The notes under the pieces were generated by a model. That model saw only the letters and a list, made by a program, of their open reading frames with translations, ran no database searches and was not told the origin of the DNA. Of a DNA stretch of 64,000 nucleotides, positions 1 through 36,884 are shown one piece after another; the first letter of the stretch is position 1, and each line of letters starts with the position of its first letter. Made by a program: the position numbers and the translations under genes. The stretch is from Bacteroidota bacterium (GTDB lineage: Bacteria; Bacteroidota; Bacteroidia; UKL13-3). The stretch is taken from NCBI GenBank assembly GCA_046309355.1, contig JBKCPL010000057.1, positions 14,668 through 78,667 on the forward strand, read 5' to 3'.

Positions 1-3
1 TGA

Positions 4-40
4 AAGAAGGCCCGCCACGCGAAGCGTGGCGGGCCTTCTT
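4..40. terminator. Perfect 17-bp stem / 3-nt loop GC-rich hairpin (AAGAAGGCCCGCCACGC-gaa-GCGTGGCGGGCCTTCTT), followed on + strand by ATTTATTTCTT; intrinsic terminator, lies 85 nt downstream of the ndk stop (minus strand) and may also terminate a + strand gene left of the window
   Basis: Read directly: perfect inverted repeat at 4-20 / 24-40, with T-rich tract after it on + strand. Confidence 0.6.
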
Positions 41-124
41 ATTTATTTCTTGTATTATGCGTAAAAAAAATCCCGACCACTGTTCAGCAATCGGGATGTA
101 TAATTAAATGACTAATAGATGTAA

Positions 125-544
125 TTAGAAGCGCTCGAAGCTGCTGAAGAAGAAACCTGCTTCGCGGGCTGCATTCTCATCGCTGTCGCTGCCATGTATA
201 GCATTGGCATCAATCGATTTGGCATACAAATTACGGATAGTGCCGGGCGCTGCTTTTTGCGGATCGGTAGCCCCTATTACTTCACGAAAATCAGCTACAG
301 CATTTTCTTTTTCGAGTACTGCAGCTACAATAGGACCTGAGGTCATAAAAGCTACCAGCTCTCCAAAAAACGGACGCTCGCGGTGAATATCATAAAACTC
401 ACCTGCTTTTTCTTCGCTCAGGCGGGTGTACTTCATGGCTTTGATTTTGAAGCCCTTTTGAATAATATGGTCAATAATTTTTCCGGTGTGGCCGTTTGCA
501 ACTGCATCGGGCTTAATCATGGTGAAGGTGATTTTTCCGCTCAT
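125..544 (-). CDS. ndk: nucleoside diphosphate kinase
   Basis: Translation ([15 protein letters not shown]...NAIHGSDS...) matches the NDK family over full length; start moved to internal Met (MSGK) of the longer ORF 125..595. Confidence 0.9.
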
Positions 545-625
545 ATATGTTTGTTTCTGAATTTCGGGGCGCAAAGATATTTTGATTTCTATCAAAACCT
601 ATAAAACCGGGTTAATTATCTGTTA
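473..625. repeat. Left copy of 153-bp direct repeat (covers ndk codons 1-24 plus 81 bp of ndk upstream/promoter region); att-like boundary of the island
   Basis: 473-625 is identical to 6213-6365 except one position (A575 vs G6315); also visible as duplicated antisense ORFs 383..604 and 6120..6344 in the ORF track. Confidence 0.9.
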
Positions 626-920
626 TTCCGATGATATTGATGTGATGATAAGTTAAATCATGCAAAATTTTATCTTGTTCCCAAATTATTAAGAAGCGTT
701 TTCAATTATTTGTTTTATGTAATTAACAGAAGACTGCCAATTCATTACAATTTACTATAACTTTTTGAATGTATTTATAATAGTATTCTTTATTCTAAAA
801 AGTTTGAGAACTATACTTATTAATACTATATGATTGTAGTTACAATAAGTTTTGTGACTAAATATTTGATTAGAAATTAAACATAACACAAAACAATAAT
901 TCCTGAAATTAAACAGATAA

Positions 921-1277
921 TTAATGAGTATTAATTTTATCAATTAGCTTTGTTATTTGTGTGTCTTTTACATTTAGTTGCTCTTTCAAGTATTGAACTT
1001 CTTTGCGTAACTCATCAACTAATTCTTTGGCATAAGTTATTTCAATACTATCAATCTCTTCAGTAGTAGTCATGGCTAATATCTTAGTCACACTAGTCTC
1101 GTATAGACTTGCTAATTTTTCTAAGCGTTCAACAGAAATAGCAACCTGACCACGTTCCATACGACCATAATTAGTTGTATCTATTTCTAAATAGTCAGCA
1201 ACCTGCTCTTGACTAATCCCTTTCTGTTTGCGAATTTGACGTATGGCTTCGTACACTGATATTTTTTTATTTACCAC
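921..1277 (-). CDS. XRE-family helix-turn-helix transcriptional regulator with C-terminal coiled coil (cI/Cro-like position, divergent from island operon)
   Basis: N-terminal HTH_XRE signature (KQKGISQEQVADYLEIDTTNYGRMERG); C-terminal heptad-like region (LVDELRKEVQYLKEQL). Confidence 0.7.
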   Translation of the reverse strand: MVNKKISVYEAIRQIRKQKGISQEQVADYLEIDTTNYGRMERGQVAISVERLEKLASLYETSVTKILAMTTTEEIDSIEITYAKELVDELRKEVQYLKEQLNVKDTQITKLIDKINTH

Positions 1278-1451
1278 AACACGAAATTATCGTTACAACC
1301 GTATGCATATAGTGCATAATAATCATATTTATATGCGTTTTTTATGTTATTAATTGCGTTATTTGCATTTTATTATTATCGTGTAACCAAATAATACATA
1401 TTTATAAAAACATTAAAAGTTTAAGTGGTTTACGAAAACTGCATAGTAAGA

Positions 1452-2249
1452 ATGAAAAATAAAATATTTACCGTTGCTGTACTACTATTCGCTACCTCAA
1501 CAAATGCGCAATGGAGTGGGCCTATAAATGGAACCTTAAATACTTCAAATTTTGTTAATATCAATCGATTTGGTATTGGAACAGGACCTAGTTTACCATT
1601 ACTATCTTTAAGTCATGACCCTGGAAATGGTGTATACTACCCTTTACATGTAACAGAGAATCGTGTGGGCATTGGCACAAATAATCCACAGGCGAGTTTT
1701 CATGTACTGAATAATTTGTTAATGACTAGGAGTAATAATACGGAGATTTTTAAAGTTAACTCGACTGGATTGCTCCGCTTAACTACAGATGGCATTGACA
1801 ATAATTTTAGAGGCTTCTATATAAACAATGGAAATAATGATTTTTTCGCATTAACACAGTCTAATATGTACTACAATGGTAAATTTACTTTAAAAGGAGA
1901 TCTTGTAATTAAGGATAATAATAATGATGTGCAGTATAGGTTATATCAGGATGGTTTAATAAGGGCACGTGAAGTTAAGGTAGATTTAAGTATTATACCT
2001 CCCGATTATGTATTTGAAGCCGGATATAAACTAATGCCTCTTAAAGAACTCGATAAGTATATTAAAGAAAATAAGCATTTACCGAGAATACCATCAGCTA
2101 AAGCTATGCAGGATGAAAATGGCATACAAGTCGGTTACATGCAATTATTACTATTAGAAAAAGTAGAGGAATTAACTTTATATTTACTTCAACTAAAAGA
2201 AGAGAATGAATGGTTGAAACAACGCATTACCCTACTCGAGCAGCAATAG
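1452..2249 (+). CDS. secreted tail-fiber domain protein (Peptidase_S74 / endosialidase intramolecular-chaperone-like C-terminal domain) with N-terminal GIGT repeats
   Basis: Signal peptide MKNKIFTVAVLLFATSTNAQ; repeated N(R)xGIGTxxP motifs; C-terminal PDYVFEAGYKLMPLKELDKYIKENKHLPRIPSA...EELTLYLLQLKEEN motif typical of Bacteroidota 'tail fiber domain-containing' proteins; start placed at Met10 of ORF 1425..2249. Confidence 0.6.
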   Translation: MKNKIFTVAVLLFATSTNAQWSGPINGTLNTSNFVNINRFGIGTGPSLPLLSLSHDPGNGVYYPLHVTENRVGIGTNNPQASFHVLNNLLMTRSNNTEIFKVNSTGLLRLTTDGIDNNFRGFYINNGNNDFFALTQSNMYYNGKFTLKGDLVIKDNNNDVQYRLYQDGLIRAREVKVDLSIIPPDYVFEAGYKLMPLKELDKYIKENKHLPRIPSAKAMQDENGIQVGYMQLLLLEKVEELTLYLLQLKEENEWLKQRITLLEQQ

Positions 2250-2929
2250 CATTGTTAGTTATGCTGTTGATAGTTGGTACAAGTAGTGCCCAGCGAGGAG
2301 TTGCGCTAAAAACAGGTGTGCTGTATGGTTACTCCTGGCTTACATTCAACGAAAGTTCGCAAAGTTTTGATAAACGACTTGCACGCGAAAAGATTAACTA
2401 TACGCCACTACAAAGTGTAGGGATTGAGATGGGTGCTCGCATTTTTATTTCATCAAAATTAGCATTGGAAGTAGTTCCACGTTGGCAGCAATGGGGTGGT
2501 ACAATCACCGTAAATAGTAATGAATATACCAACCAAATGCTGAAAATGGTAATTAATTATCAAAGCTTTCGAATACCCGCTACACTCCAATACGCCTTTG
2601 CCGGTAACGAGCGCTTGCAATTTTTTGCTTCACTTGGTATAGGCATAGATTATACCTACCGCTTATGGTTTTTACCCACTAACTACTATGGCAGTGCACC
2701 CACACAAAGACGTACTGTTGATATTGTAACACCATTTACTTCCATAGGTTTCGGTTTTACTTACACACCTAGCGCCAATAGTCAAATGAGTTATACGTTT
2801 GGTATCAATTATGAAACTGATGCTCTCTTAAACCCCGTCAGGTTTAATGAGTTCAATTTTTGGCAAAACTCTGTGCCGTTACTTTCGCATCAGCTCCATA
2901 CTTCTTTTCTAATACAGTACCGTTTATGA
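2210..2929 (+). CDS. outer-membrane beta-barrel (porin-family-like) protein
   Basis: Signal peptide ending SSAQ; alternating hydrophobic/aromatic beta-strand pattern, Y/F/W-rich; alternative start ATG at 2261 would remove the 40-nt overlap with the upstream gene. Confidence 0.45.
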   Translation: MVETTHYPTRAAIALLVMLLIVGTSSAQRGVALKTGVLYGYSWLTFNESSQSFDKRLAREKINYTPLQSVGIEMGARIFISSKLALEVVPRWQQWGGTITVNSNEYTNQMLKMVINYQSFRIPATLQYAFAGNERLQFFASLGIGIDYTYRLWFLPTNYYGSAPTQRRTVDIVTPFTSIGFGFTYTPSANSQMSYTFGINYETDALLNPVRFNEFNFWQNSVPLLSHQLHTSFLIQYRL

Positions 2930-3657
2930 AAATACATGTGATAAAATTATTGCTAGTTATCACCAGCACTATGGTATTGAACACCTGCTTGGCACAACTA
3001 TTTCATCCAAAAGACTCAGTGCGAAAGCAACGAATTGTGCAAGTGGGGCTAGGCGGCTATATGGGTGTTAACCATGTAAAGCCCATAAACCAAATCATGA
3101 GATATCAGATCGCAAACGGTTATGATAAGGGATTATTGGCTGATTTGAAAGTTAATATCACAAATTACTTATCGGTTAAAAGCGGCTTACGAATGAGTGA
3201 ACAAACAGCTATGCTTGGATATGGTAACAATACCTTTTTTGAATCATTTCATTTAACTATGAATAGGCAAACAGTACCAATGTTAATTTCTTTTAAAGCC
3301 AATCATGCCGGCATAAATTTATTTGATGTTGAATTAGGTATTGCTTACAATAACATATCCTTTCGCAGTACAAACAATAACACATATTGGCTGCTTACGT
3401 ATTATTTTGGCTCGCAATATACAGGTGGTTATTGGATAAATTATCAAAATGTAAGCGCTTTATCATATATCCTAAATATTAATAAGGAATATAAAATCAA
3501 AAAATCACTTTTCATCCAATTCTTTAGCGAACTAGATATACTGAGCAAAACACTTGATATACAAGATGCTTATCGGATGCCAGATTTATCTATTATTCAA
3601 TATCAGACACCGTTTATGCTATATAGTATAAGATTAGGAGTTGCAATAAAGTACTAG
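2926..3657 (+). CDS. outer-membrane beta-barrel-like protein (paralogous in style to the upstream gene)
   Basis: Start at internal Met (MKIHVIKLLLVITSTMVLNTCLAQ signal peptide), ATGA overlap with upstream stop; amphipathic beta-strand composition, C-terminal aromatic residue. Confidence 0.4.
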   Translation: MKIHVIKLLLVITSTMVLNTCLAQLFHPKDSVRKQRIVQVGLGGYMGVNHVKPINQIMRYQIANGYDKGLLADLKVNITNYLSVKSGLRMSEQTAMLGYGNNTFFESFHLTMNRQTVPMLISFKANHAGINLFDVELGIAYNNISFRSTNNNTYWLLTYYFGSQYTGGYWINYQNVSALSYILNINKEYKIKKSLFIQFFSELDILSKTLDIQDAYRMPDLSIIQYQTPFMLYSIRLGVAIKY

Positions 3658-3658
3658 T

Positions 3659-5776
3659 ATGAGAAAACATTTTTTTATAACATTATTTTTGTTAAGTATT
3701 GTGTTAGCTAATAACAGCATTGCACAAGTACCCAACAATATAATACCTAACAGCAATTTTAACCATGCAAATAGGGAACCCTTTGTATTACCTGCGTGCA
3801 ATACCCTATTAAAAAATAAAAATGATTATACATTAGTTATTGAGAATTGGAAGGGTGAAGGAGAACGTAACACACCTGAGTGGCGTTCATTTATTGCTGA
3901 CAACAATAATTCGTTTTGTAGTGTATGTAGCCCTTTAAATCCAACTGGACAAAATCCATTTATAGATGATAACTTTATCTTTATTGCGCAAGATGAACTT
4001 GTACCTTATGGTGAATGGCTTTATGCTGAATTGTATACATCTTTGAATTATGATAAAAAGTATAAATTAAGAGTAATTGGTCAAGGTCATTTACCTGCGC
4101 TACCATCTCTGCACGATCCCGGTGTTATTGCTATTCATCTTACTTTACCTGGCAGCAACTGGCACCATCAAAGTGAACTAGACAAAAGCATGATGAGTAT
4201 GATGTATTGCACACATCAGGAATATGAATGTAAACCAAGATCATTTGAACACATTTTTACAGTCACAAAACCGAATTTAAAACAAATTGTATTACAAGCA
4301 AACAATGCGGGATTCTTTATTGACCGAGTAGAACTTTACGAATACTGCACTGAGCTACTTACCCGGCAAGGCCGCACCTATAAATTTGACAGGGAATTAG
4401 AAGAGGCGGGAACCATTATAGCAGGTTCAGTAATTAACAATGCACCAGCAATGGGTGATGTAGTTATGCTGGATGGAAGCATTACCACCTATAAAGCGGC
4501 TAACGAGGTGAAATTAACAGAAGGATTTTATGTGAACAGAGGTGCTGATTTTAGTGCTAAAATTGCACCATGCGGGCAGGATTGTCCATCCACGAACATA
4601 AACATCCCTTCAGAATACGTGCTGTGCAATAGCGATTGTATTAATTTAACTACCGGTACGGTTACTCGCGGGTTAACAGTAAACTGGACTTCGCAAGATG
4701 CGCAAAACTTACAGTACTTATCATCTGTAAGTGTTATAAATCCTGTGTTTTGCCCACCACCTGGCACTTCGGGTGTTTATGAATACGATGTGGTTATACA
4801 AAATGGTTGCGGTGAAACAACAACTAAAAAAGTAACTATAAAATATTTTAGCACACCAGTTCCTGATCCTACAATTAATATTACAAATAGTAACTTAGCT
4901 ACATTACCTACCTATCCTGAAATAAGTGTAGCTTCTACTGAGTTTACCGAATATGTAAATTATGATATTTTAGATTGTAATGGCAATTTGATTCATACAC
5001 AAACATTCACATTCTTTAATCAACAAATGCCTCCGGCACCGGCTCAGTTTAAATTTAACCAATTTTTAGATCCCTGTGGTTGCTATAAAATAAGAATACG
5101 TCAGAAAAATCATTGTAATGAGACGATTGCTGAACAAATATTAGATTGGAATAGACAACAATCCATAAGCAATCTCTTTTTCCCTACATTTATTATATGT
5201 AAAGATGGAAAACGATTAATTTGTTTTGACGGTAAAGGAATAAAACAGTTTCAATTGCAATTGTTTAATAAGTGGGGACAATCTGTATTAAATACATCAG
5301 GTAGTTACAACAAAGACCCGTATTGTATAGAGTTTCCATCACACCTACCAGCAGGTCCATATTATTACATTATAACATTTATAGGATGTGATGGAAGTGT
5401 TCTTACTGCTAATGGAAGTATGCAAGTAGGGGGATGTGATGAATCCATGCTATTGATAAATAACAACGATACAGATAGCATAGAGGCATTTAATAACTTA
5501 GCCGACTCTATATTCATGGAATTAAGTCCTAATCCTACGGCAAATGAAGTGACAATAAGTTTTACCATACCCAATAGTGGTCAATTGAGAATTAATTTGC
5601 TAGATAAAAACTTAAGTCAAAATCAAGTGGTACACGATATGTATTACAGTAATAGTGGAAGTTATCAAATTAGCGTGCAAGTAAATCATCTGTCTGGTGG
5701 TATAAATTATTGCTTATTTGAGTTTATAAATGGAGGTACAGTTAAGGTATATAAAAAATTTACACTAATACGTTAA
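3659..5776 (+). CDS. 705-aa secreted T9SS cargo protein: internal CHU_C/type-B-like CTD segment plus C-terminal type-A Por secretion tail; Cys-rich middle region
   Basis: Signal peptide MRKHFFITLFLLSIVLANNSIAQ; C-terminus LSPNPTANEVTISF...GQLRINLLD...SGSYQISVQVNHLSGGINYCLFEF...KVYKKFTLIR fits the Por_Secre_tail pattern; internal QLQLFNKWGQSVLNT...LPAGPYYYIITF resembles the gliding-motility C-terminal (type B) domain. Confidence 0.55.
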   Translation: MRKHFFITLFLLSIVLANNSIAQVPNNIIPNSNFNHANREPFVLPACNTLLKNKNDYTLVIENWKGEGERNTPEWRSFIADNNNSFCSVCSPLNPTGQNPFIDDNFIFIAQDELVPYGEWLYAELYTSLNYDKKYKLRVIGQGHLPALPSLHDPGVIAIHLTLPGSNWHHQSELDKSMMSMMYCTHQEYECKPRSFEHIFTVTKPNLKQIVLQANNAGFFIDRVELYEYCTELLTRQGRTYKFDRELEEAGTIIAGSVINNAPAMGDVVMLDGSITTYKAANEVKLTEGFYVNRGADFSAKIAPCGQDCPSTNINIPSEYVLCNSDCINLTTGTVTRGLTVNWTSQDAQNLQYLSSVSVINPVFCPPPGTSGVYEYDVVIQNGCGETTTKKVTIKYFSTPVPDPTINITNSNLATLPTYPEISVASTEFTEYVNYDILDCNGNLIHTQTFTFFNQQMPPAPAQFKFNQFLDPCGCYKIRIRQKNHCNETIAEQILDWNRQQSISNLFFPTFIICKDGKRLICFDGKGIKQFQLQLFNKWGQSVLNTSGSYNKDPYCIEFPSHLPAGPYYYIITFIGCDGSVLTANGSMQVGGCDESMLLINNNDTDSIEAFNNLADSIFMELSPNPTANEVTISFTIPNSGQLRINLLDKNLSQNQVVHDMYYSNSGSYQISVQVNHLSGGINYCLFEFINGGTVKVYKKFTLIR

Positions 5777-5789
5777 CTCGTAATGATAT

Positions 5790-6212
5790 ATGAGGCTGTT
5801 AATCTCAATATTACTATTTCAAATACTACTATTTTCTGTGAATATTGGTGCACAATCGAGGATAGATCATATTGACTTTTTTGAGGGCAGTAATACTAAA
5901 ACTGCCACAACACTAGCAATTGATTCGCAGTCTACTTCGGTAAGCGGCATTGTTAATACGGGTGCTATAAACAACACTTATTCGTTAATATCTAAGGATA
6001 GTATCACCTTACATCGTAAGCTACGCTTTGGGTTGGGTGTTTTCGGTGGCATGTCAAATTACTTCACTACTTCAAATGCATTTAGTACTCAAACACAAAT
6101 TGGAAAAGATTAAGGTGCATTGGTACATGTTAGTTATAGAATCACTAAAAAAATATCATTTGATGCAGAGCTTAGATATGTAGGTAAAAATTTATATACT
6201 TCATATGCAAAT
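5790..6212 (+). pseudogene. outer-membrane beta-barrel gene disrupted by an in-frame TAA (6114-6116) and truncated at the island/repeat junction
   Basis: ORFs 5790..6113 and 6120..6344 are in the same frame, separated by one stop; the second piece (…FDAELRYVGKNLYTSYANNNF) is OMP-like and then runs into the duplicated ndk sequence. Confidence 0.5.
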
Positions 6213-6365
6213 AATAATTTTTCCGGTGTGGCCGTTTGCAACTGCATCGGGCTTAATCATGGTGAAGGTGATTTTTCCGCTCATATATGTTTGTTTCTGA
6301 ATTTCGGGGCGCAAGGATATTTTGATTTCTATCAAAACCTATAAAACCGGGTTAATTATCTGTTA
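6213..6365. repeat. Right copy of 153-bp direct repeat; contains a second ndk promoter and an orphan 24-codon ndk 5' fragment (6213-6284, minus strand)
   Basis: 152/153 identity to 473-625. Confidence 0.9.
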
Positions 6366-6398
6366 CTGCATGCCCTTGAAACACCTGAGGTTGTTAAA

Positions 6399-7571
6399 TT
6401 GCCCTATATTCGCAACGTGAAAAATCCGCTACGTACACGCATTGGCATCATTGGTGGAGGTCAGCTGGGCCGCATGATGATTGAGGAGTCGCTACGGCTC
6501 AATGTATCTTTCAATACGCTGGATGCAGCCGATTGTCCCTGTGTCCGATTATCGGCACAGCATATTGCAGGAAAACTCACCGATGGTGATGCTATACGTA
6601 AGCTGGCTGCCATAAGCGATGTACTTACCTACGAAATTGAACATATTGATGTAGCCACACTGCTGCAATTGGAGCGTGAGGGTAAAACCATCATTCCATC
6701 GCCACAGGTATTGCAGATTATTCAGGATAAAGGTTTACAAAAACAATTTTTTGAAACGAACGGGTTGCCTACTGCACCTTTTGTGTTGGTAAACACCGCT
6801 GCAGAGTGGCCTCAGGCTGCTCAGCAACTGGGTGGTGAAAAACTGGCCGCCAAAACCCGCAAAGACGGGTATGATGGAAAAGGTGTGTGTTTGGTAACAA
6901 CCGCTGACGTAATGCGTGGCCATTTACCGTTTGATGTGCCTTCGGTATTGGAGCAATTTATACCTTGCCAGAAGGAGTTATCTGTACTGGTAGCCCGCAC
7001 GGCAACAGGTGATGTAACCACATGGCCGGTGGTTGAAATGGTGTTCGACCCGGTAGCCAATTTGGTTACGTTTTTAGAATGCCCTTCGCAAGTTGATGCT
7101 TCGCTTCAACAACAAGCGCGTGATATCTCTATCAAAGCAATTCAATTACTGAACGGTGTGGGCGTATTTGCCGTTGAGTTATTTTTAACTGAAAACAATA
7201 CTATCCTTATCAACGAAATTGCTCCGCGCCCGCACAACTCGGGCCACCACACTATTGAAGCCTGTTATACTTCTCAGTTCGAACAACTGGTTCGCATCTT
7301 GTGCGGATTGCCTCTGGGAAATACCGATTTGATACAGCCCGCTGTAATGATGAACCTGCTTGGCGCACCTGATTTCAATGGCCCGTATGCCTTGCAAGGC
7401 TTACATGAGGCTATGCACACCGAAGGTGTGTACATTCATTTATACGACAAAGCTGAGAGCAAACCCATGCGTAAAATGGGGCATGTTACTATTATGGCAC
7501 CTACGCTTGAATCAGCTATAGAAAAAGCTTACAAAATAAAAGATTTACTGAAGTTTGTTCCCGAGGGCTAG
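6399..7571 (+). CDS. purK: N5-carboxyaminoimidazole ribonucleotide synthase (ATP-grasp)
   Basis: GIIGGGQLGRMM N-terminus and ATP-grasp body typical of PurK. Confidence 0.85.
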   Translation: MPYIRNVKNPLRTRIGIIGGGQLGRMMIEESLRLNVSFNTLDAADCPCVRLSAQHIAGKLTDGDAIRKLAAISDVLTYEIEHIDVATLLQLEREGKTIIPSPQVLQIIQDKGLQKQFFETNGLPTAPFVLVNTAAEWPQAAQQLGGEKLAAKTRKDGYDGKGVCLVTTADVMRGHLPFDVPSVLEQFIPCQKELSVLVARTATGDVTTWPVVEMVFDPVANLVTFLECPSQVDASLQQQARDISIKAIQLLNGVGVFAVELFLTENNTILINEIAPRPHNSGHHTIEACYTSQFEQLVRILCGLPLGNTDLIQPAVMMNLLGAPDFNGPYALQGLHEAMHTEGVYIHLYDKAESKPMRKMGHVTIMAPTLESAIEKAYKIKDLLKFVPEG

Positions 7572-7578
7572 TCTGCTT

Positions 7579-9666
7579 TCACACACTTCCGTTCCATTTG
7601 CGTATGCCCCACTCCAGGGTTAGCAGTGTCAGCAATACATAAAAAATCCATTTCACATCAATCCAGCTTTTGCGCTCTTTGCCTGTATATACAATAGGTT
7701 GTAATGCATCATGTTGCTGTATGGCTTCAGCTAGTGTATTCAGGTTATGAGCCTGCACTGCATAGCCTCCGGTTTGTGCAGCCAGCTCGCGCATCAGTTG
7801 TGCATGGGCAACATTTTCAGTTTGCTCCAACTGCAGCGGCACAACATAAAAACTACCGCTGGTTTTCAGCTGTTCACTGCCACGTGTTGCTGTGGCAGTG
7901 TAAGTATATTTTCCTGGTGTCAATACTCCGGCTTGAAGCGTGTATCTGTTTTGCTGTGCTGAAAGTGCATAGGTGTATTCTTTTCCTGCGCTGTTTTTAA
8001 TGGTTACCCGTACATCGGCATCTTGTATTGTTTCATAGCTTTCATTGTACACTTCAGCATCGGCTGTGATGGTTTCATTTTCTTCGTAGCGGTTGTTAAA
8101 CAACAAGCGAAAACGCGCATTGTCTTTTCGTGTCGACAGATATTGAATGGTTTTTTGAATGAGCTGCGTTACCGTTTGCTGATTGTTTAGTTGAAAATCG
8201 GCTAGGTGCCAGCGCCATATTCCTTCACCGCAAATAAACGCTGAACGCTGTGTGGCACTTTTCAAAAAAAACCACAACGGGTAATTCGTTTTTACATATC
8301 CAATTTGCTGCGTAAGCAGTGCTTCGTAGTCACCGGCTACGCTATATGTGGCAAACGGACTAAGCAATGGTGGAAATTTAGTGAGCACGTTTTTTTCGGT
8401 TTCGTCCAGTATAAACAAACCGAATTGTTCATTCACATTGGCAAGGGCCTCGTTGCTGGACTGGTTGCGAAATTGTATGCGAAATGCAGGCTCCAGTGCG
8501 GTTAGTACATTTAGTCCAGTCATGCTGCCCAATACATACAACAGGGGTGTATTGCGGCTTTTAAACTCTTCAATCAGCTTTTGACCTTCGCCACGCCAAC
8601 CGGGCAATTGATGCAGCACAACAAGGCTGTATGCATTAGTCGGTTTCATGCCCGACAAGTCATTGATGTACTGTACCTCGCAGCTGTATCCTTCAGTGGC
8701 CTCAATCATTTTTTTCATGGCGCCCAAATCAGGATGCGGTGCAAATGCCAGCAACAGCACACGCTGACGATTGGAAATAATATTTACGTAGGCCTCATAC
8801 ACATTATTTTGTGTGGTTTTTTCTCCGCTTACGGCACTTACTTTTATACGGTATATCTGTGAGCCTTCGCCCAGTGCAGGAATGGTGAGTGTATGTGTTT
8901 CGAAAAAGGAAGAACCGGTGTACGAAATATTTTTTTGTGCCAAGGTATTTCCATTATGCGAAATACTGAGTACAGCACTTTGTCCCGAACAGTTATCTGC
9001 TGCTACATCCACCTGAATAGCGATGTTGTTTCCTGTAAATGCCACCTGATTGCAGCGTACATTTTTTATACGTGCATCTTTAGGCGCAACCGTATCGCCC
9101 AGAAGTACGGTAAATATCGGAACGGCCATATCTGCCGAACTGTACAACGGATTATCGCCACGGTTGTAAAGTCCGTCACTGATTAATACAACTGCGCCCA
9201 GCTGTGCGCTTTCGTAGCGGTTGCTAATCTGAGTCAGCGTTTTGCTGATATCGGTTATTTTTCCATCGTATGCAGGAGTTGAACGTGCATTTAACTGCTC
9301 ATCAAAGGTGTGATGTACGACTTCAAAATCGGACTCGAGTAGGCGTTTAAATTCATTCAGTTCAGTTTGAAAATTACTTTTATAGTATGCGGCTTCGCGA
9401 CTTCCGGCAACCGATTGACTGTTGTCGGATGCAATAACCAGTACAGGTTTTTGTGTGCGTTCGGTAATCCATTCGCTTACCGGTCCTGTTAAGAGCAAGG
9501 CCAAAATGAACAGCACGGCAAAGCGCACGCCCATAAGTATGCGTTGCACCAACACACCGGTTTTTCCTTCTAGTCGAAGCGGATTACTGCGGTACAGCCA
9601 CCACGCAGCAGCAGCCGATGCAGCAGCAGAAGGAATAATTAGCCACGGTGAATATTCAAACGTCAT
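7579..9666 (-). CDS. BatA-like N-terminal double-transmembrane domain protein (VWA-like), Bacteroidota-conserved
   Basis: Two N-terminal TM helices (PWLIIPSAAASAAAAWWLY; FAVLFILALLLTG) followed by a VWA-like region, ~700 aa, as in the TIGR02226-type family. Confidence 0.5.
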   Translation of the reverse strand: MTFEYSPWLIIPSAAASAAAAWWLYRSNPLRLEGKTGVLVQRILMGVRFAVLFILALLLTGPVSEWITERTQKPVLVIASDNSQSVAGSREAAYYKSNFQTELNEFKRLLESDFEVVHHTFDEQLNARSTPAYDGKITDISKTLTQISNRYESAQLGAVVLISDGLYNRGDNPLYSSADMAVPIFTVLLGDTVAPKDARIKNVRCNQVAFTGNNIAIQVDVAADNCSGQSAVLSISHNGNTLAQKNISYTGSSFFETHTLTIPALGEGSQIYRIKVSAVSGEKTTQNNVYEAYVNIISNRQRVLLLAFAPHPDLGAMKKMIEATEGYSCEVQYINDLSGMKPTNAYSLVVLHQLPGWRGEGQKLIEEFKSRNTPLLYVLGSMTGLNVLTALEPAFRIQFRNQSSNEALANVNEQFGLFILDETEKNVLTKFPPLLSPFATYSVAGDYEALLTQQIGYVKTNYPLWFFLKSATQRSAFICGEGIWRWHLADFQLNNQQTVTQLIQKTIQYLSTRKDNARFRLLFNNRYEENETITADAEVYNESYETIQDADVRVTIKNSAGKEYTYALSAQQNRYTLQAGVLTPGKYTYTATATRGSEQLKTSGSFYVVPLQLEQTENVAHAQLMRELAAQTGGYAVQAHNLNTLAEAIQQHDALQPIVYTGKERKSWIDVKWIFYVLLTLLTLEWGIRKWNGSV

Positions 9667-32136: not shown

Positions 32137-35100
32137 TTAACGCTCCATTTTTCCACCCAACACAAACGAGCGCTTGCTGCGCTGTACATCGCCTTTTAGA
32201 TTAAATACTTCGAACCATACGGTGTAAATACCTATGGAAGCCTTCGTGTTTTTATCATCTGTTCCGTCCCAGCTAACGGTGCCTGATGTACCTAGTATGC
32301 TGTTGCGCATTAAGGAAGTTACTTCGCGCCCATGTGAGTCGAAAATACTCAGATTACCGGTGTAGCCGCTTTCGGCAAGTTGATACGAAAACTGAATCAC
32401 ATCATTGTACCCGTCATTGTCGGGCGAAAATACTTCGGGCGAAACTCCCAGCAGTGAATGTGCTGCCGAACCATCGGCATATTGTGAATTTTTATAGGTG
32501 GGTGTAGCAAATCCTGCTGAGGCAGATGCAGATGTCCAGTTGGTTTTATCACCGGTTGCCCTGAACGGATGAATACGTTCCAGACTTACACCATCGGTAT
32601 TATCAAGCAATGCAAAATGCATGTCATCTGTATAGCTCAGCTGATCGTAACGAGTCAGAAATTTATCATGAATCACGCACGTGCCTTTGTCATTCGGGAA
32701 TGAGGGCATTTTACAGTTGACCATATTCAGTGGATTCGGAGTGTAGTAGTCGCGCTGCACTGAACCGGCATTGCTGGTTATGACCACATAGTTGCCGGGC
32801 AACACAATAAAGCCGCTGTCGGATATCGCATAGGATTCGAGCAGAGAATAATTTTCACCGGTGTTGCCAACAAAAAATTGTTTCAAATCCAGTATTCGGT
32901 TTCCGGTGTTGTACAACTCTATAAAATCTACACCACTACTGCGTGGGTTAAACAATACTTCGTTAATGACAATATCGCCCGGTTGTGCGGTATCGGGTAG
33001 TCCAAAATCGGCAAAATCCTGTTCGGCAATTTTATTCCCGGCACAATCTTGTACTTCATTCACCACAATACGATAAGTAGATTGCGGTAAAAATGCATCG
33101 GCAAACGAAACCCGAACTTCGTTGTAAAACGGAGGCATAAGTTGTATGCCGTTAGCACCCGAGTTGCCTGCTACAGTATACCTTGATACTGCAAGCTGTG
33201 TTGTGCTGTCTATCGGCTCATCAAAAGTTAGTCGAACAGTGTTCGCGTTAAGCGGATATGCCTGCATCAATACAGGTGGCTTACGGTCGCGTACGATGCT
33301 TTTATTCGAATTTGTTTTGCCCGGACTACCACCTGTCAGTGACGAGCTGGCTATCCAGTTTTCAGCACCTGCACAGGGATTTTGTGCATCCATTAACTCC
33401 AGGCTCCAGCCTCCGTTCTTCTTCACATTATCGCGGTACCAGTAGTCAGTGTATTCCACTGCATGTATCACCTTCCCGAAATTATCCCTTAATACAAGTC
33501 TTTCGCCATCGTTACTTAGCAGCGGGAATCGGTTAATGCCGACAACACGAGCTTTGCCCGTAAAAAACGCAGCGTTATTTAACGATGTAAGCACAATAAA
33601 ACTATCGGGGTATAAGGTAACAGAAGGTAAATCGGCTGTACCTGTGTTGTCGGATATGCTCCAATTATTTAACGAAAGTATACGGTTGCTTCGGTTGCAC
33701 AATTCGATATATTCTGCATTGGGCAAAGCGACTACAGGATCGGGATTGGCCATAATTTCATGAATTAGTACGTCAAACGAGCGAGCAGTATCAGGTACCT
33801 CACGGGTTATAAATGCGGTATAAAGTTGCATGGCATTTTGATTGCAATCGCGTGCACCTGATAGTGTAATTTTGTAATTTATATTTTCAGTAAGTGCAGT
33901 TGTGTTCAGCGTCACTCGATTCAGTTCGGGCCATTGTATGCTTCGGGCATTGATTGATAAAACAGGCTGCGATAAAAAGGAAATGTTCAATGCCGACAGG
34001 CTGTCCATGCGTTCACTGAAATCTATTTGCAGTTGATTTTCGCTTATGGCAGACACAGCACTTACAAGCGGGGCTTGCGAATCGGGTTGTGTGTTCCACT
34101 GCGAATTTTTTATTCCAGGTGTACCTCCTGTTGCATTAACGGCTGCTGCGTAGTTGTTCTGTTGCTTGCAATAATCAAAAGGATTGATGAGTTCAATACT
34201 CCAGCCACCGTCACTTTTTGAGTTATCGGTATACCAACTCATATCGTACTTGAGCTGATGGATAACTTGGTTATGTTGGTTTCGGATACTGATTTCGTCA
34301 CTTGAATTATTGAGTGATGGAAAATTGGTTAAGCCCAGTGATTTGCCGAAGGGTTGAAACATGAAAGCAGCACTGCTTGGGCAAAGTATCAAAAAACTAT
34401 CCGGCTGAAGCACGTATGAAGGCAGGGATGCTGCTCCTGATTCATCGCTTAACGTAAACCCATTCAAATTAATCGGAAATCCTGAACGGTTATACAATTC
34501 AATAAATTCATATTCGGGTAACCCAACTACAGGAGTTGGGTCAGCTAAAAATTCGCTGATGAGTAAATCATACTGTTCTGTTACAACATACTGAAAGGCT
34601 GTATTCAAGCCGACCTGTGTGTTTCCTGATTGATCTTTAACCCCATCAACTGTTAGGGTATAGCTTGTTTTATTTTGCAGTGAGGAGAACAGCGTCAGTT
34701 CTACTGTTCGGTTGTTCAGTAGTGTTGCGCCAATGGCATTGCCTATTCCTTTATCAATACTATAATGCTGATTCTCTACGGCAGAAACAGCATCTAGTGG
34801 TTCATCAAAAACAACCTGAACCTTGGTGGCATTAACAACGGTTACCTGATCAACACGGGGTGCTGAATTATCTACAATTACCGGTCCGGCATATACATCA
34901 TCGGCATAGAAATTAGCTGTATTGCCGGAGGTAAACCGGAATAAAAAACCCATAAAAGCCGATGCAGTAAATTCGTTGTCGAAACCGGTTCCTTCCAATA
35001 CAAAGGAGGTACTTCCGGTGGTATCGGAATACAACTCCCAGTTCCCGTTACCATCACGAAGTATGCGTAGTTTCACCAGATTGTTGTTTTTACTAACTGT

Positions 35101-35529
35101 AGTTGGACGTCCGGCTACAACGCGCGTGTGCACACTCCCTTTTTGTTTGTATAAAGTTATAGAATCGGTGGTGCCGGTCACACCGCCAATCTGCACATAG
35201 TACCCATTGAGGCTGCCCCGCAGGTCGGCTGCATCACTCATGAGGTATATGCGTGAAAAGTTTTGTGAACTCGGACTAAATGCATTTCGAATCCAGAAAC
35301 GCCACTCGGCATTCGTAGTTACACTATAGGCCGTAGCTAAATGTATATCCCGGGCACCTGTAGCTTTGCTTTGAAGTTGTTTGGCTGTATTTATCTGAAA
35401 CAGCGAATCATCGCCTACCCATACCGGATTTTGGGTGAAATCACCATCTGAAAAATCATCAGTGACCTGAGCCTGTACGGCACACAGCCGCAGGCATACC
35501 AGCAAAATAAGGATTCTTCGCTTTGCCAT
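32137..35529 (-). CDS. 1130-aa secreted protein with three lamin-tail domains (LTD) and a type-B (gliding-motility C-terminal) T9SS sorting domain
   Basis: Three repeats of ISEFLADP/IHEIMANPDP/VINEVLFNP + EFIELYN; C-terminal VFSPDNDGYNDVIQFSY...WDGTDDKN...GIYTVWFEV. Confidence 0.65.
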   Translation of the reverse strand: MAKRRILILLVCLRLCAVQAQVTDDFSDGDFTQNPVWVGDDSLFQINTAKQLQSKATGARDIHLATAYSVTTNAEWRFWIRNAFSPSSQNFSRIYLMSDAADLRGSLNGYYVQIGGVTGTTDSITLYKQKGSVHTRVVAGRPTTVSKNNNLVKLRILRDGNGNWELYSDTTGSTSFVLEGTGFDNEFTASAFMGFLFRFTSGNTANFYADDVYAGPVIVDNSAPRVDQVTVVNATKVQVVFDEPLDAVSAVENQHYSIDKGIGNAIGATLLNNRTVELTLFSSLQNKTSYTLTVDGVKDQSGNTQVGLNTAFQYVVTEQYDLLISEFLADPTPVVGLPEYEFIELYNRSGFPINLNGFTLSDESGAASLPSYVLQPDSFLILCPSSAAFMFQPFGKSLGLTNFPSLNNSSDEISIRNQHNQVIHQLKYDMSWYTDNSKSDGGWSIELINPFDYCKQQNNYAAAVNATGGTPGIKNSQWNTQPDSQAPLVSAVSAISENQLQIDFSERMDSLSALNISFLSQPVLSINARSIQWPELNRVTLNTTALTENINYKITLSGARDCNQNAMQLYTAFITREVPDTARSFDVLIHEIMANPDPVVALPNAEYIELCNRSNRILSLNNWSISDNTGTADLPSVTLYPDSFIVLTSLNNAAFFTGKARVVGINRFPLLSNDGERLVLRDNFGKVIHAVEYTDYWYRDNVKKNGGWSLELMDAQNPCAGAENWIASSSLTGGSPGKTNSNKSIVRDRKPPVLMQAYPLNANTVRLTFDEPIDSTTQLAVSRYTVAGNSGANGIQLMPPFYNEVRVSFADAFLPQSTYRIVVNEVQDCAGNKIAEQDFADFGLPDTAQPGDIVINEVLFNPRSSGVDFIELYNTGNRILDLKQFFVGNTGENYSLLESYAISDSGFIVLPGNYVVITSNAGSVQRDYYTPNPLNMVNCKMPSFPNDKGTCVIHDKFLTRYDQLSYTDDMHFALLDNTDGVSLERIHPFRATGDKTNWTSASASAGFATPTYKNSQYADGSAAHSLLGVSPEVFSPDNDGYNDVIQFSYQLAESGYTGNLSIFDSHGREVTSLMRNSILGTSGTVSWDGTDDKNTKASIGIYTVWFEVFNLKGDVQRSKRSFVLGGKMER

Positions 35530-35978: not shown

Positions 35979-36884
35979 TTGTATATGATTCAGAAAGTAT
36001 TCATTTCGCTGTTTGTATGTTTTGCTTTTACTACAAACTATGCACAACAACCGTCAAAGCCTAAACCCAAAGGCGCACCCAAAAGTACCTTTCAGCAAGG
36101 TGCTGTAGAGCAACGTGCGTATGTAAATCAACCAAAGCCTGAAAAGATATATTATGTCGATATATTGACTACACTAGGCAATATCAGAGTAGGGTTGTTC
36201 AACGAAACACCTCAGCACCGCGATAATTTTTTGAAGCTGGTGCGTGAAGGGTTTTACGACAGCCTGTTGTTTCACCGTGTAATCAATGGATTTATGATAC
36301 AAGGTGGCGATCCTCTTTCACGCTATGCCGAAATGGGCGCACCGCTGGGTATGGGCGATGTAGGCTACCGCATTTCGCCCGAAATTGTACCGGGTATTTA
36401 CCACAAACGCGGAGCCCTGGCAGCAGCCCGAGATAACAATCCCGACAGAGCCAGCAGCGGCTGCCAGTTTTATATTGTGCAAGGAAAAAAATTCACTCCG
36501 GCCGAGCTGCGTGATATGATTAACGCCATCAATAAAACAAAGAAACTGGATATGTTTTCGAAACTTATGGCGGTTGATACCAATAAAGTGCGCATTGACG
36601 ATTTTCGTCTGAGAGGCGATGACAAAGGGTTGGAAAAGTACATGCTGCAGTTGCAACCCATACTCGACACGCTTTTTGAGCCCTACTTTTTCAAACCTGA
36701 TCCGAATTACGTGCAGCTGTATACCAGCATAGGCGGAGCGCCTCACCTCGATCGTGATTATACCGTATTTGGTGAAGTGGTGCGCGGTATGGAAGTAGTT
36801 GACCGCATTGCCGAACTACAAACAGGCAATGGCAATCGGCCTGTTACCGATATTCGATTTCGAATGCGCATTGTAAATCCCTGA
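35979..36884 (+). CDS. peptidyl-prolyl cis-trans isomerase, cyclophilin type (secreted)
   Basis: HRVINGFMIQGGDP and cyclophilin fold similarity; signal peptide. Confidence 0.85.
   Translation: MYMIQKVFISLFVCFAFTTNYAQQPSKPKPKGAPKSTFQQGAVEQRAYVNQPKPEKIYYVDILTTLGNIRVGLFNETPQHRDNFLKLVREGFYDSLLFHRVINGFMIQGGDPLSRYAEMGAPLGMGDVGYRISPEIVPGIYHKRGALAAARDNNPDRASSGCQFYIVQGKKFTPAELRDMINAINKTKKLDMFSKLMAVDTNKVRIDDFRLRGDDKGLEKYMLQLQPILDTLFEPYFFKPDPNYVQLYTSIGGAPHLDRDYTVFGEVVRGMEVVDRIAELQTGNGNRPVTDIRFRMRIVNP

What the first reader, a model, noticed from the sequence alone, without database searches (positions are those of the whole stretch)
2210..5776. Two small OM beta-barrel genes directly upstream of a T9SS cargo with an internal type-B-like plus a terminal type-A sorting domain
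Type-B T9SS cargos (the SprB class) are normally encoded next to a dedicated PorP/SprF-family outer-membrane beta-barrel that is needed for their secretion. Here two back-to-back ~240-aa beta-barrel proteins overlap each other and sit just before the 705-aa cargo. That cargo carries a CHU_C-like segment internally (…QLQLFNKWGQSVLNT…LPAGPYYYIITF…) and also a canonical type-A Por tail at the very C-terminus. A protein with both sorting-domain types is unusual. The three genes may form a self-contained, horizontally transferable secretion/anchoring cassette, possibly a new cargo-adaptor pairing.
Basis: inference. Interest (0 to 1): 0.65.

Follow-up and report, generated by a model that had tools for sequence, protein, structure and literature searches.

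The report
Inserted surface-protein island with double-tailed cargo
A recently inserted 5.6-kb island in an uncultured Bacteroidota genome carries a tail-fibre-like protein, two small 8-stranded outer-membrane barrels (not PorP/SprF adaptors) and a secreted adhesin-like protein that has a working-looking type-A secretion tail behind a degenerate leftover type-B tail.

Summary
Three tightly coupled genes (B1 2210-2929, B2 2926-3657, cargo 3659-5776) encode two small barrels and a 705-aa protein. That protein has an internal CHU_C-like domain (aa 504-593) and a terminal type-A CTD (aa 617-705).

The PorP/SprF interpretation fails. No PF11751 or TIGR03519 hit appears in either barrel family. B1 models as an 8-stranded OmpW/OmpA-class barrel, not a 14-stranded FadL-type one. 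B2 is its distant paralog.

The double tail is real and typical of its family. In this uncharacterised superfamily, internal CHU_C plus terminal Por_Secre_tail is the majority architecture. Some relatives score far above threshold for both domains, and others end in a bona fide type-B CTD. The window's clade has lost the two loop blocks of the type-B domain, so I read it as a relic.

The cassette idea is supported and extended:
- The most constant partner of the cargo is an upstream tail-fibre-like protein (1452-2249).
- The whole module (626-6212) has low GC and is flanked by 153-nt direct repeats.
- It is absent from a 99%-identical conspecific contig, which is an empty site.

What the barrels do is unknown. 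A new anchoring role is not excluded.

The parts
473..625 (.). Left copy of the 153-nt direct repeat. It covers the first 24 codons of ndk (minus strand, ATG at 544) plus 81 nt upstream.
   Evidence: one mismatch to 6213-6365; present once in the empty-site contig L023.
921..1277 (-). XRE/Cro-type HTH regulator, divergent from the operon
   Evidence: HTH_3 at 53.8 bits. A divergent HTH gene is also present in L001 and L004.
1452..2249 (+). orf0: a secreted tail-fibre-like protein (265 aa). It has a signal peptide, GIGTxxPxxxLHV-type beta-helix repeats, and a conserved C-terminal ~85-aa module ending in a coiled coil.
   Evidence: a homologue lies upstream of the cargo relative in 19 of 22 loci, and the other three contigs stop short of that position; alignment; profile hit to Bdellovibrio MAT fibres 8OND (E 3.4e-7) and 8OJN (3.7e-4).
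2210..2929 (+). B1: small 8-stranded outer-membrane beta-barrel (239 aa) of the OMP_b-brl / OmpW-OmpA class
2926..3657 (+). B2: distant paralog of B1 (243 aa). Its start overlaps the B1 stop (ATGA).
3659..5776 (+). Cargo: 705-aa T9SS substrate with a signal peptide, CBM-like jelly-roll, 3-coathanger-stack region, two Ig-like domains, a relic type-B CTD, a linker and a type-A CTD
3731..4348 (+). Cargo aa ~25-230: beta-jelly-roll resembling carbohydrate-binding modules and MAM domains
4355..4573 (+). Cargo aa 233-305: 3-coathanger-stack (GCX_COOH) region, ending in APCG
   Evidence: NF045639 at 36.3 bits (cut-off 26); 24 of 24 homologues.
5168..5437 (+). Cargo aa 504-593: internal CHU_C-derived beta-sandwich. 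The strand blocks are kept; the loop blocks TPNGDGxND and CxWDG are lost.
5441..5506 (+). Cargo aa 595-616: disordered linker ending in the invariant D616-S617. Inferred region of CTD cleavage.
   Evidence: pLDDT below 50. D616 and S617 invariant.
5507..5773 (+). Cargo aa 617-705: terminal type-A CTD (Por_Secre_tail-like)
5790..6218 (+). Decayed remnant of a third barrel gene. It has an in-frame stop after GKD and is truncated at about residue 120 of 260.
   Evidence: tblastn E 2e-14 to the two intact downstream barrels of L001; that type is a paralog of B2 (hhalign 98.7%).
6213..6365 (.). Right copy of the 153-nt direct repeat, carrying a 5' fragment of ndk

Best explanation
Window 626-6212 is a ~5.6-kb laterally acquired island. 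It sits between the divergent housekeeping genes ndk and purK and is bracketed by a 153-nt duplication of the ndk 5' end.

The island carries one surface-protein module:
- a divergent XRE regulator;
- an operon encoding a Sec-exported tail-fibre-like protein (orf0);
- two paralogous 8-stranded outer-membrane barrels (B1, B2);
- a 705-aa adhesin-like T9SS substrate;
- a decayed third barrel.

Shown: the cargo belongs to an uncharacterised superfamily whose tail is a type-B CTD. In most members that type-B CTD is followed by a linker and a type-A CTD.

Inferred: in the window's clade the terminal type-A CTD is the operative secretion signal, following the PorV route with removal of the CTD in or near the disordered linker. 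The internal type-B domain has kept its fold-forming strand motifs and cysteines but lost both loop motifs. It therefore persists as a structural or interaction domain rather than as a sorting signal.

Shown: the barrels are not PorP/SprF shuttles.

Inferred only from conserved, translationally coupled synteny: the barrels act as outer-membrane partners or anchors for the fibre and/or the cargo, so that together the products form a glycan-binding surface appendage.
For: Island:
- GC is 0.26-0.39 inside against 0.44-0.48 outside.
- A 153-nt direct repeat with one mismatch lies at 473-625 and 6213-6365.
- Contig L023 is 99.2-99.7% identical. It joins window 1-625 directly to 6366 onward with a single repeat copy.
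- Relatives L024-L026 also have ndk next to purK.

Cassette:
- The order orf0, B1, B2 (one to three copies), cargo recurs in loci from about a dozen genomes whose cargo is 30-69% identical, each with different neighbours.
- Gene junctions overlap or are 1 nt apart.

Barrels:
- No PorP_SprF hit at E<=1 in either family, while OMP_b-brl and OMP_b-brl_2 hit 8 of 10 B1 relatives.
- PorP-like proteins are 14-stranded FadL-family barrels (PMC9143113).
- B1, B2 and the downstream type are paralogs.

Cargo:
- The domain layout comes from the AF2 model (pLDDT 81.9).
- The head is CBM-like.
- Both tail domains are conserved family-wide, including the invariant PNP, D616 and S617.
- CHU_C hits 14 of 24 and Por_Secre_tail 9 of 24 at E<=0.01.
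- Relatives such as P0062 (57.3 and 41.7 bits), P0054, P0094 and P0052 are well above both cut-offs.
- Relatives of ~600 aa end in CHU_C at 36-55 bits.
- The loop blocks are lost only in the window's clade.
- Paillat et al. report that mutating any one of the five motifs abolishes SprB-CTD secretion (PMC12618676).

orf0: it matches trimeric beta-helix fibres.
Against: - No experiment or complex prediction links the barrels to either orf0 or the cargo.
- B2 was not modelled.
- The window protein's own CHU_C and Por_Secre_tail scores are just below Pfam cut-offs. TIGR04183 is hit only marginally (2 of 24 at E 0.07) and TIGR04131 not at all.
- The direction of evolution (gain of the A tail versus loss of it) is not resolved by the rough midpoint-rooted NJ tree.
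- The island has no integrase, so how it moved is unexplained.
- orf0 has a signal peptide but no T9SS CTD, so its route to the surface, if it gets there, is unknown.
- T9SS core genes were not identified in the window. Their presence is inferred from a second CHU_C-terminal protein at 32137-35529.
Confidence: 0.6

Rival explanations
1. B1 and B2 are dedicated adaptors or anchors for the cargo. They recognise its type-B-derived domain and so do the job of PorP/SprF with a different, smaller barrel. After the type-A CTD is removed, the CHU_C-like domain lies near the new C-terminus and docks non-covalently on the barrels.
For: - Small signal-peptide proteins of about 190-245 aa sit between orf0 and the cargo in loci from most of the genomes examined. 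These include relatives that end in a bona fide type-B CTD (L019, L020) and one with strong double tails (L022).
- None of these loci has a PorP_SprF gene next to the cargo.
- The genes are translationally coupled.
- The internal domain is conserved, with invariant cysteines, and is not decaying freely.
Against: - B1 has 8 strands and no similarity to PorP, PorV or FadL.
- The loop motifs are lost in the window's clade.
- The small proteins of the distant clades are not detectably homologous to B1/B2 and have no Pfam hit.
- Two type-B-terminal relatives (L017, L021) have no small gene at all.
- Canonical sprF-like genes lie downstream of their cargo.
Confidence: 0.15
2. The barrels serve the fibre protein orf0, not the cargo. 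They would anchor or help assemble its conserved C-terminal module and coiled coil in the outer membrane. The T9SS cargo would then be an independent tip or co-adhesin that merely shares regulation.
For: - orf0 is the most constant partner in the cassette, and the barrel genes directly follow it.
- orf0 has a signal peptide but no T9SS CTD, so it needs some other way to reach or hold the surface.
- The C-terminal ~85 residues are the best conserved part of orf0.
Against: - Loci L017 and L021 have orf0 and the cargo but no barrel.
- No known precedent was found for an 8-stranded barrel anchoring a trimeric fibre.
- Nothing was tested directly.
Confidence: 0.2
3. This is just a cluster of unrelated surface proteins. 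The barrels are generic porin-like OMPs with no functional tie to the cargo, and the internal CHU_C match is only a generic Ig-like resemblance.
For: - Only generic OMP_b-brl matches were found.
- The window protein's CHU_C score is below the cut-off.
Against: - The order and coupling are conserved across cargo identities of 30-69% in unrelated genomic neighbourhoods.
- The whole set arrived as one island.
- The internal domain aligns column by column with bona fide terminal CHU_C domains of relatives.
Confidence: 0.05

Closest known systems
Type-B CTD cargo with a cognate PorP/SprF shuttle (SprB-SprF and Fjoh_3952-Fjoh_3951 in Flavobacterium johnsoniae; PG1035-PorP in Porphyromonas gingivalis)
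   Same: - The cargo family descends from, or includes, proteins ending in a CHU_C/type-B CTD.
- Outer-membrane barrel genes are tightly linked to the cargo gene.
- The cargo has an adhesin-like multi-domain body.
   Different: - The barrels have 8 strands and about 240 aa and belong to the OMP_b-brl class. PorP/SprF barrels have 14 strands and belong to the FadL family.
- They lie upstream of the cargo rather than downstream.
- The type-B domain is internal, lacks two of the five conserved blocks, and is followed by a type-A CTD.
Type-A CTD substrates of the T9SS (for example RgpB, RemA and mirolase), which are handled by PorV and PorU
   Same: - A terminal ~85-aa beta-sandwich with a PNP block and a basic end.
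- A flexible linker precedes it.
- It superposes structurally on the mirolase CTD.
   Different: - It scores below the Pfam cut-off for this protein and barely registers with TIGR04183.
- It is preceded by a second CTD-type domain, an arrangement I did not find described in the literature I searched.
Small 8-stranded outer-membrane barrels (OmpW, OmpA N-domain, NspA, PagL; in Bacteroidota the PF13568 group, which from my own knowledge includes PorT/SprT)
   Same: - Fold and size.
- Weak-to-moderate PF13505 and PF13568 matches across the B1 family.
   Different: - No specific family assignment and no NCBIfam hit.
- They are encoded as tandem paralogs inside a cargo cassette.
- A relationship to PorT specifically was not tested.
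Bdellovibrio MAT fibres and phage tail fibres (relevant to orf0)
   Same: GxGTxxPxxxLHV-type repeats match the trimeric beta-helix region of Bd2133 and Bd3182.
   Different: - orf0 is much shorter (about 265 aa).
- It has no S74 chaperone domain and no PHROG hit.
- It ends in a distinct conserved module plus a coiled coil.
- It is always paired with a T9SS cargo.

Membership tests
PorP/SprF (PF11751, TIGR03519) | Significant match to the family HMMs | tested here: not met
   Whole-library scans at E<=1 returned no PorP_SprF hit for B1, B2 or any of 21 family members.
PorP/SprF (PF11751, TIGR03519) | 14-stranded FadL-family outer-membrane barrel (PMC9143113) | tested here: not met
PorP/SprF (PF11751, TIGR03519) | Gene directly linked to a type-B CTD cargo, canonically downstream of it | tested here: inconclusive
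   The genes are linked and coupled, but they lie upstream of the cargo, and the cargo's type-B domain is internal and degenerate.
PorP/SprF (PF11751, TIGR03519) | Binds the type-B CTD and is required for its secretion or anchoring | not testable with these tools
   This needs complex prediction or genetics.
OMP_b-brl clan (PF13505 / PF13568), small 8-stranded barrels | HMM match at or above the gathering score | tested here: inconclusive
   Window B1 scores 24.0 against 28.7 and 15 against 27. Eight of 10 B1 relatives hit, with best E-values of 1e-8 and 1.5e-7. Window B2 has no hit, and 2 of 11 B2 relatives hit.
OMP_b-brl clan (PF13505 / PF13568), small 8-stranded barrels | 8-stranded antiparallel barrel with a signal peptide | tested here: met
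   B1 only. The signal peptide ends in AQ.
T9SS type-A CTD (PF18962, TIGR04183) | HMM match | tested here: inconclusive
   The window protein scores 24.6 against 27. Nine of 24 homologues hit at E<=0.01, and P0003 passes at 29.2. More distant relatives score 29-51 bits. TIGR04183 hits only 2 of 24, at E 0.07.
T9SS type-A CTD (PF18962, TIGR04183) | Beta-sandwich at the extreme C-terminus, after a flexible linker | tested here: met
T9SS type-A CTD (PF18962, TIGR04183) | PorV-dependent secretion and removal of the CTD by PorU | not testable with these tools
   Experimental.
T9SS type-B CTD (PF13585, TIGR04131) | HMM match | tested here: inconclusive
   The window protein scores 25.3 against 27 and covers only profile positions 26-74 of 86. 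Five of the ten relatives scanned (nine of them hand-picked as having a precomputed CHU_C annotation) pass, at 28-31 bits. There are no TIGR04131 hits.
T9SS type-B CTD (PF13585, TIGR04131) | Located at the C-terminus | tested here: not met
   The domain ends at aa 593, which is 112 residues before the C-terminus.
T9SS type-B CTD (PF13585, TIGR04131) | All five conserved blocks present, each of which is needed for SprB-CTD secretion (PMC12618676) | tested here: not met
   TPNGDGxND is replaced by C-KDGKR with a 2-residue deletion, and CxWDG is replaced by CIEFP. The three strand blocks are kept. Mapping these blocks onto the paper's motifs A-E is my inference from their order and from the loop/strand assignment.
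T9SS type-B CTD (PF13585, TIGR04131) | Common descent with bona fide type-B CTDs | tested here: met
   The domain is positionally homologous to the terminal CHU_C (36-55 bits) of full-length relatives, and to the intact internal CHU_C (up to 57 bits) of others.
3-coathanger stack / GCX_COOH (NF045639) | HMM match above the cut-off | tested here: met
   36.3 bits against 26 at aa 273-305, and 24 of 24 homologues hit. In this protein the domain is internal.
Integrative genomic island | Flanking direct repeats, and an empty site in a conspecific genome | tested here: met
Integrative genomic island | Its own integrase or recombinase | tested here: not met
   No such ORF lies in 626-6212. The only regulator is an XRE HTH protein.

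The most novel reading that the evidence does not exclude
The B+A tandem may be a two-step sorting device. The terminal type-A CTD would drive export through the PorV route. Its removal would then leave the type-B-derived domain at the new C-terminus, where it docks on cassette-encoded small barrels, or on the fibre protein, instead of on PorP/SprF or A-LPS. That would be a previously unrecognised, self-contained and horizontally mobile way of anchoring T9SS cargo. It would also separate the secretion signal from the targeting signal in natural proteins.
Probability: 0.12. Interest if true: 0.75.

Novelty: new variant of a known kind. Interest (0 to 1): 0.5.

Why it matters
[quoted passage not shown] Recent work argues that a CTD contains separable secretion and targeting information (PMC12618676).

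This superfamily supplies natural proteins that carry both CTD types in tandem. They form a graded series:
- a terminal type-B CTD only;
- an intact type-B CTD followed by a type-A CTD;
- a degenerate type-B CTD followed by a type-A CTD.

That series gives ready-made constructs for asking which signal is read, and what an internal type-B domain does once the protein is outside the cell.

The constant pairing with a tail-fibre-like protein and small barrels suggests an unstudied surface appendage in uncultured freshwater Bacteroidota. The island has precise boundaries and a matching empty site in a conspecific contig, which shows that it is exchanged as a unit.

If the barrels turn out to be ordinary OMPs and the internal domain is inert, the finding reduces to an uncharacterised adhesin cassette.

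Tried and rejected
B1 was therefore modelled from 4 sequences.
- The afdb50 fold library was unavailable.
- A Foldseek search of the whole cargo against the PDB gave only generic multi-Ig matches.
- PHROGs gave nothing for orf0, B1, B2 or the cargo.
- Pfam gave nothing for orf0.
- PDB sequence searches gave only marginal 8-stranded-barrel hits for B1 and B2 (Opa60, OprH). They gave nothing for the C-terminal module of orf0.
- The small proteins in distant loci (L015, L016, L018, L019, L020, L022) could not be linked to B1/B2 by HMM, hhalign or Pfam. Calling them barrels rests only on their signal peptides and aromatic C-termini.
- The exact-pattern search for the empty site in metagenomes found nothing. 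The purK-based search then found it.
- No flanking repeats were found around the cassette in eight other loci.
- The promoter and terminator scan was at background level.
- The 301-aa gene next to the window's other CHU_C protein was considered as a possible PorP. It is a cyclophilin.
- Literature searches found no description of B+A tandem CTDs. The library is limited, so this is absence of evidence only.

Full report
**What is in the sequence**

Four genes on the + strand run almost without gaps.
- orf0 is mechanically 1425-2249. Its likely ATG is at 1452, giving the start MKNKIFTV.
- B1 is 2210-2929. It overlaps the end of orf0 by 40 nt.
- B2 was listed from TTG 2860. Its homologues begin at MKIHV, which is ATG 2926. 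Its start therefore overlaps the B1 stop as ATGA.
- The cargo is 3659-5776. It starts 1 nt after the B2 stop.
- A divergent XRE-type HTH gene lies upstream at 921-1277 on the minus strand (HTH_3, 53.8 bits).
- A 107-aa ORF follows the cargo (5790-6113).

All four + strand proteins have signal peptides ending in AQ.

**The barrels**

The window's B1 scores just under Pfam's cut-offs: OMP_b-brl 24.0 against 28.7, and OMP_b-brl_2 15 against 27. B2 hits nothing. Neither protein hits PorP_SprF or TIGR03519 at E<=1.

I assembled the two families from database hits and from syntenic loci (alignments A2 and A3).
- Eight of 10 B1 relatives hit OMP_b-brl and OMP_b-brl_2, with best E-values of 1e-8 and 1.5e-7.
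- None of the 21 family members hits PorP_SprF.
- B1 and B2 are distant paralogs (hhalign probability 97%, E 8.5e-11).
- The barrel type found downstream of the cargo in locus L001 is a paralog of B2 (98.7%).

They are generic small barrels, not PorP/SprF. B2's barrel status is an inference from paralogy. I could not model it.

**The cargo**

For the window protein alone, CHU_C (25.3 bits, aa 528-576, profile positions 26-74 of 86) and Por_Secre_tail (24.6 bits, aa 624-686) are each about 2 bits below cut-off. NCBIfam reports only the 3-coathanger-stack domain (36.3 bits, aa 273-305).

The family settles the question. Twenty-eight full-length homologues of about 700 aa exist, all from uncultured Bacteroidota. 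In a 24-sequence alignment both tail segments are conserved. Invariant or nearly invariant positions include G527, C514, C556, C577 and C593 in the internal domain, and D616, S617, P624, N625, P626 and G681 at and in the terminal domain.
- CHU_C hits 14 of 24 members and Por_Secre_tail hits 9 of 24 at E<=0.01.
- In every member scanned individually the hits fall at the same positions.
- Several pass the cut-offs: CHU_C 28-31 bits in P0002, P0004, P0014, P0015 and P0028; Por_Secre_tail 29.2 bits in P0003.

The AF2 model (pLDDT 81.9) gives this layout:
- signal peptide;
- a jelly-roll at aa ~25-230;
- a beta region at aa 233-305;
- two Ig-like domains;
- a sandwich at aa 504-590;
- a disordered linker at aa 595-616 (pLDDT below 50);
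- a final sandwich at aa 619-703.

**The double tail in its wider family**

A profile search of 1.84 billion cluster representatives found 155 proteins at E<1e-30. I classified the full-length relatives with sub-profiles and checked samples with Pfam. Three architectures emerged.
- About 600-aa proteins end in a bona fide CHU_C: P0107 55.3, P0106 49.9, P0117 41.8 and P0135 40.9 bits.
- About 700-aa proteins have an intact internal CHU_C and a strong terminal Por_Secre_tail: P0062 57.3 and 41.7; P0054 43.6 and 43.1; P0094 40.4 and 41.6; P0052 47.6 and 51.2.
- The window's clade has weak matches to both.

Among 79 relatives that have a detectable CHU_C-like domain, 67 carry a tail of about 100 aa after it. 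In this family the B+A tandem is therefore the norm.

An alignment of the CHU_C regions shows what changed in the window's clade. It keeps the blocks FN(K/R)WG, GxYYYI and the final GxxxV strand. It has replaced PNxxTPNGDGxND with FPxxxC-KDGKR, with a 2-residue deletion and the acidic residues gone. It has replaced CxWDG with CIEFP.

Paillat et al. report five conserved motifs. Two are in loops and three in strands, and mutating any one of them abolishes SprB-CTD secretion. Mapping my blocks onto their A-E motifs is an inference from order and from loop/strand position. On that mapping the window's domain keeps the fold-forming motifs and has lost both loop motifs.

In a rough NJ tree of the region upstream of the tails, the window's clade is nested within the B+A radiation. 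The degenerate state is therefore derived. Whether the A tail was gained once or lost in the B-terminal clade is unresolved.

I found no mention of tandem B+A CTDs in the papers I searched.

**The cassette**

- All close relatives (30-69% identity) show orf0, B1, one to three copies of B2, then the cargo. In some, B2 or extra paralogs lie downstream.
- The flanking genes differ in every genome.
- An orf0 homologue precedes the cargo in 19 of the 22 loci. In the other three (L008, L013, L018) the contig ends before that position. The 19 include type-B-terminal relatives (L017, L019, L020, L021), a strong double-tailed one (L022) and the distant L015 and L016.
- Small signal-peptide proteins of about 190-200 aa with aromatic C-termini occupy the slot between orf0 and the cargo in L015, L016, L019, L020 and L022. 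They are not detectably related to B1/B2 and have no Pfam hit.
- L017 and L021 have no small gene in that slot.
- No locus has a PorP_SprF gene beside the cargo.

The N-terminal GxGTxxPxxxLHV repeats of orf0 match the trimeric beta-helix of the Bdellovibrio MAT fibres Bd2133 and Bd3182 (profile E 3.4e-7 and 3.7e-4; PMC10769870). Its best conserved part is a C-terminal module of about 85 aa (PDYVF...HLPxIPSA...LLEKxEELTLY) ending in a coiled coil. That module matches no known family.

**The island**

GC content is 0.26-0.39 from about 500 to 6400, against 0.44-0.48 outside. A 153-nt direct repeat with one mismatch lies at 473-625 and 6213-6365. It consists of the first 24 codons of ndk (real ATG at 544, minus strand) plus 81 nt upstream.

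A metagenomic contig that is 99.2-99.7% identical (L023) joins window 1-625 directly to 6366 onward with a single copy of the repeat. More distant relatives (L024-L026) also have ndk next to purK. So 626-6212 is an insertion that is polymorphic within the species. It carries exactly the regulator, orf0, B1, B2, the cargo and a gene remnant.

That remnant (5790 to ~6218) is homologous to the two intact downstream barrels of L001. It has an in-frame stop and ends at about residue 120 of 260.

The island encodes no integrase. A repeat of this length would fit Campbell-type integration of a circular molecule carrying a copy of the ndk 5' region, but that is an inference.

**How it most likely works**

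Shown:
- a mobile, co-inherited module;
- an adhesin-like cargo with a CBM-like head;
- a conserved terminal type-A CTD behind a flexible linker;
- a conserved but motif-depleted type-B-derived domain;
- 8-stranded barrels;
- a fibre-like partner.

Inferred:
- The cargo is exported through the T9SS by its type-A tail (the PorV route), and the tail is removed near the invariant D616-S617.
- The internal domain acts as a stalk or interaction domain.
- The barrels and orf0 provide the outer-membrane base or partner of a surface appendage.

The presence of a T9SS in this genome is itself inferred. It rests on the CTDs and on a second protein with a C-terminal CHU_C at 32137-35529.

The alternatives are listed as rivals: that the small barrels are a new kind of anchor for the type-B-derived domain, or that they serve orf0. 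Neither is excluded, because nothing here tests protein-protein contacts.

**Verdict**

The PorP/SprF reading is rejected. The cassette and its horizontal transfer are confirmed and sharpened. The double tail turns out to be a family trait with an informative evolutionary series.

I rate this a new variant of known kinds (a T9SS cargo plus small OMPs) and of moderate interest. Most of its value lies in the natural B+A tandem series and in the unstudied partnership of fibre, barrel and cargo.

Noticed in passing
window 473-625 and 6213-6365; L023: 153-nt direct repeats (one mismatch) bracket the low-GC cassette. A 99%-identical metagenomic contig has ndk next to purK with one repeat copy and no island, which makes it an empty site. 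The island has no integrase.
   Followed up: yes
window 5790-6218 (+): The 107-aa ORF after the cargo is the 5' part of a decayed barrel gene. It has an in-frame stop and a 3' truncation, and it is homologous to two intact barrels downstream of the cargo in L001.
   Followed up: yes
window 1452-2249 (+) and its homologues in the related loci: An uncharacterised tail-fibre-like protein lies upstream of the cargo relative in 19 of 22 loci examined; in the other three the contig ends first. Its C-terminal module (PDYVF...HLPxIPSA...LLEKxEELTLY plus a coiled coil) matches no Pfam, PHROG or PDB entry.
   Followed up: partly
window 32137-35529 (-): A second putative T9SS cargo of 1130 aa has three lamin-tail domains, a Big_5 domain and a C-terminal CHU_C (28.4 bits, above cut-off). 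No PorP/SprF gene is adjacent. The divergent neighbour at 35979-36884 is a cyclophilin-type PPIase, followed by a DUF5686/CarboxypepD_reg protein.
   Followed up: partly
L019 2894-4162, L020 7874-9130, L021 2838-4073: In the type-B-terminal relatives the cargo is directly followed by a ~415-aa protein. In L019 and L020 this protein has faint-to-weak BNR/sortilin beta-propeller matches and its own type-A CTD; in L021 it has no Pfam hit on record. This suggests a fourth, clade-specific cassette member.
   Followed up: no
L017 8800-14276: One type-B-terminal relative sits beside a UvrD-helicase gene, an OLD-like TOPRIM/AAA_15 gene (a Gabija-like pair) and a serine recombinase. This looks like a mobile or defence-island context.
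   Followed up: no
L006 10124-14262; L012 9145-13064: A ~30-nt palindromic element (GTAGAGACGTTGCATGCAACGTCTTTAC) recurs 3-5 times in intergenic positions downstream of the cassette. It resembles a REP element.
   Followed up: no
L001 7267-7355 and 10361-10449: An 89-nt stretch covering the end of B1 and the signal-peptide start of B2 is repeated at 83% identity at the start of the first downstream barrel. This points to recent duplication or gene conversion among the barrel paralogs. L006 has three tandem B2 copies.
   Followed up: no
window 7579-9666 (-): A 695-aa ORF next to purK has an N-terminal membrane segment and no Pfam match at E<=1e-5.
   Followed up: no
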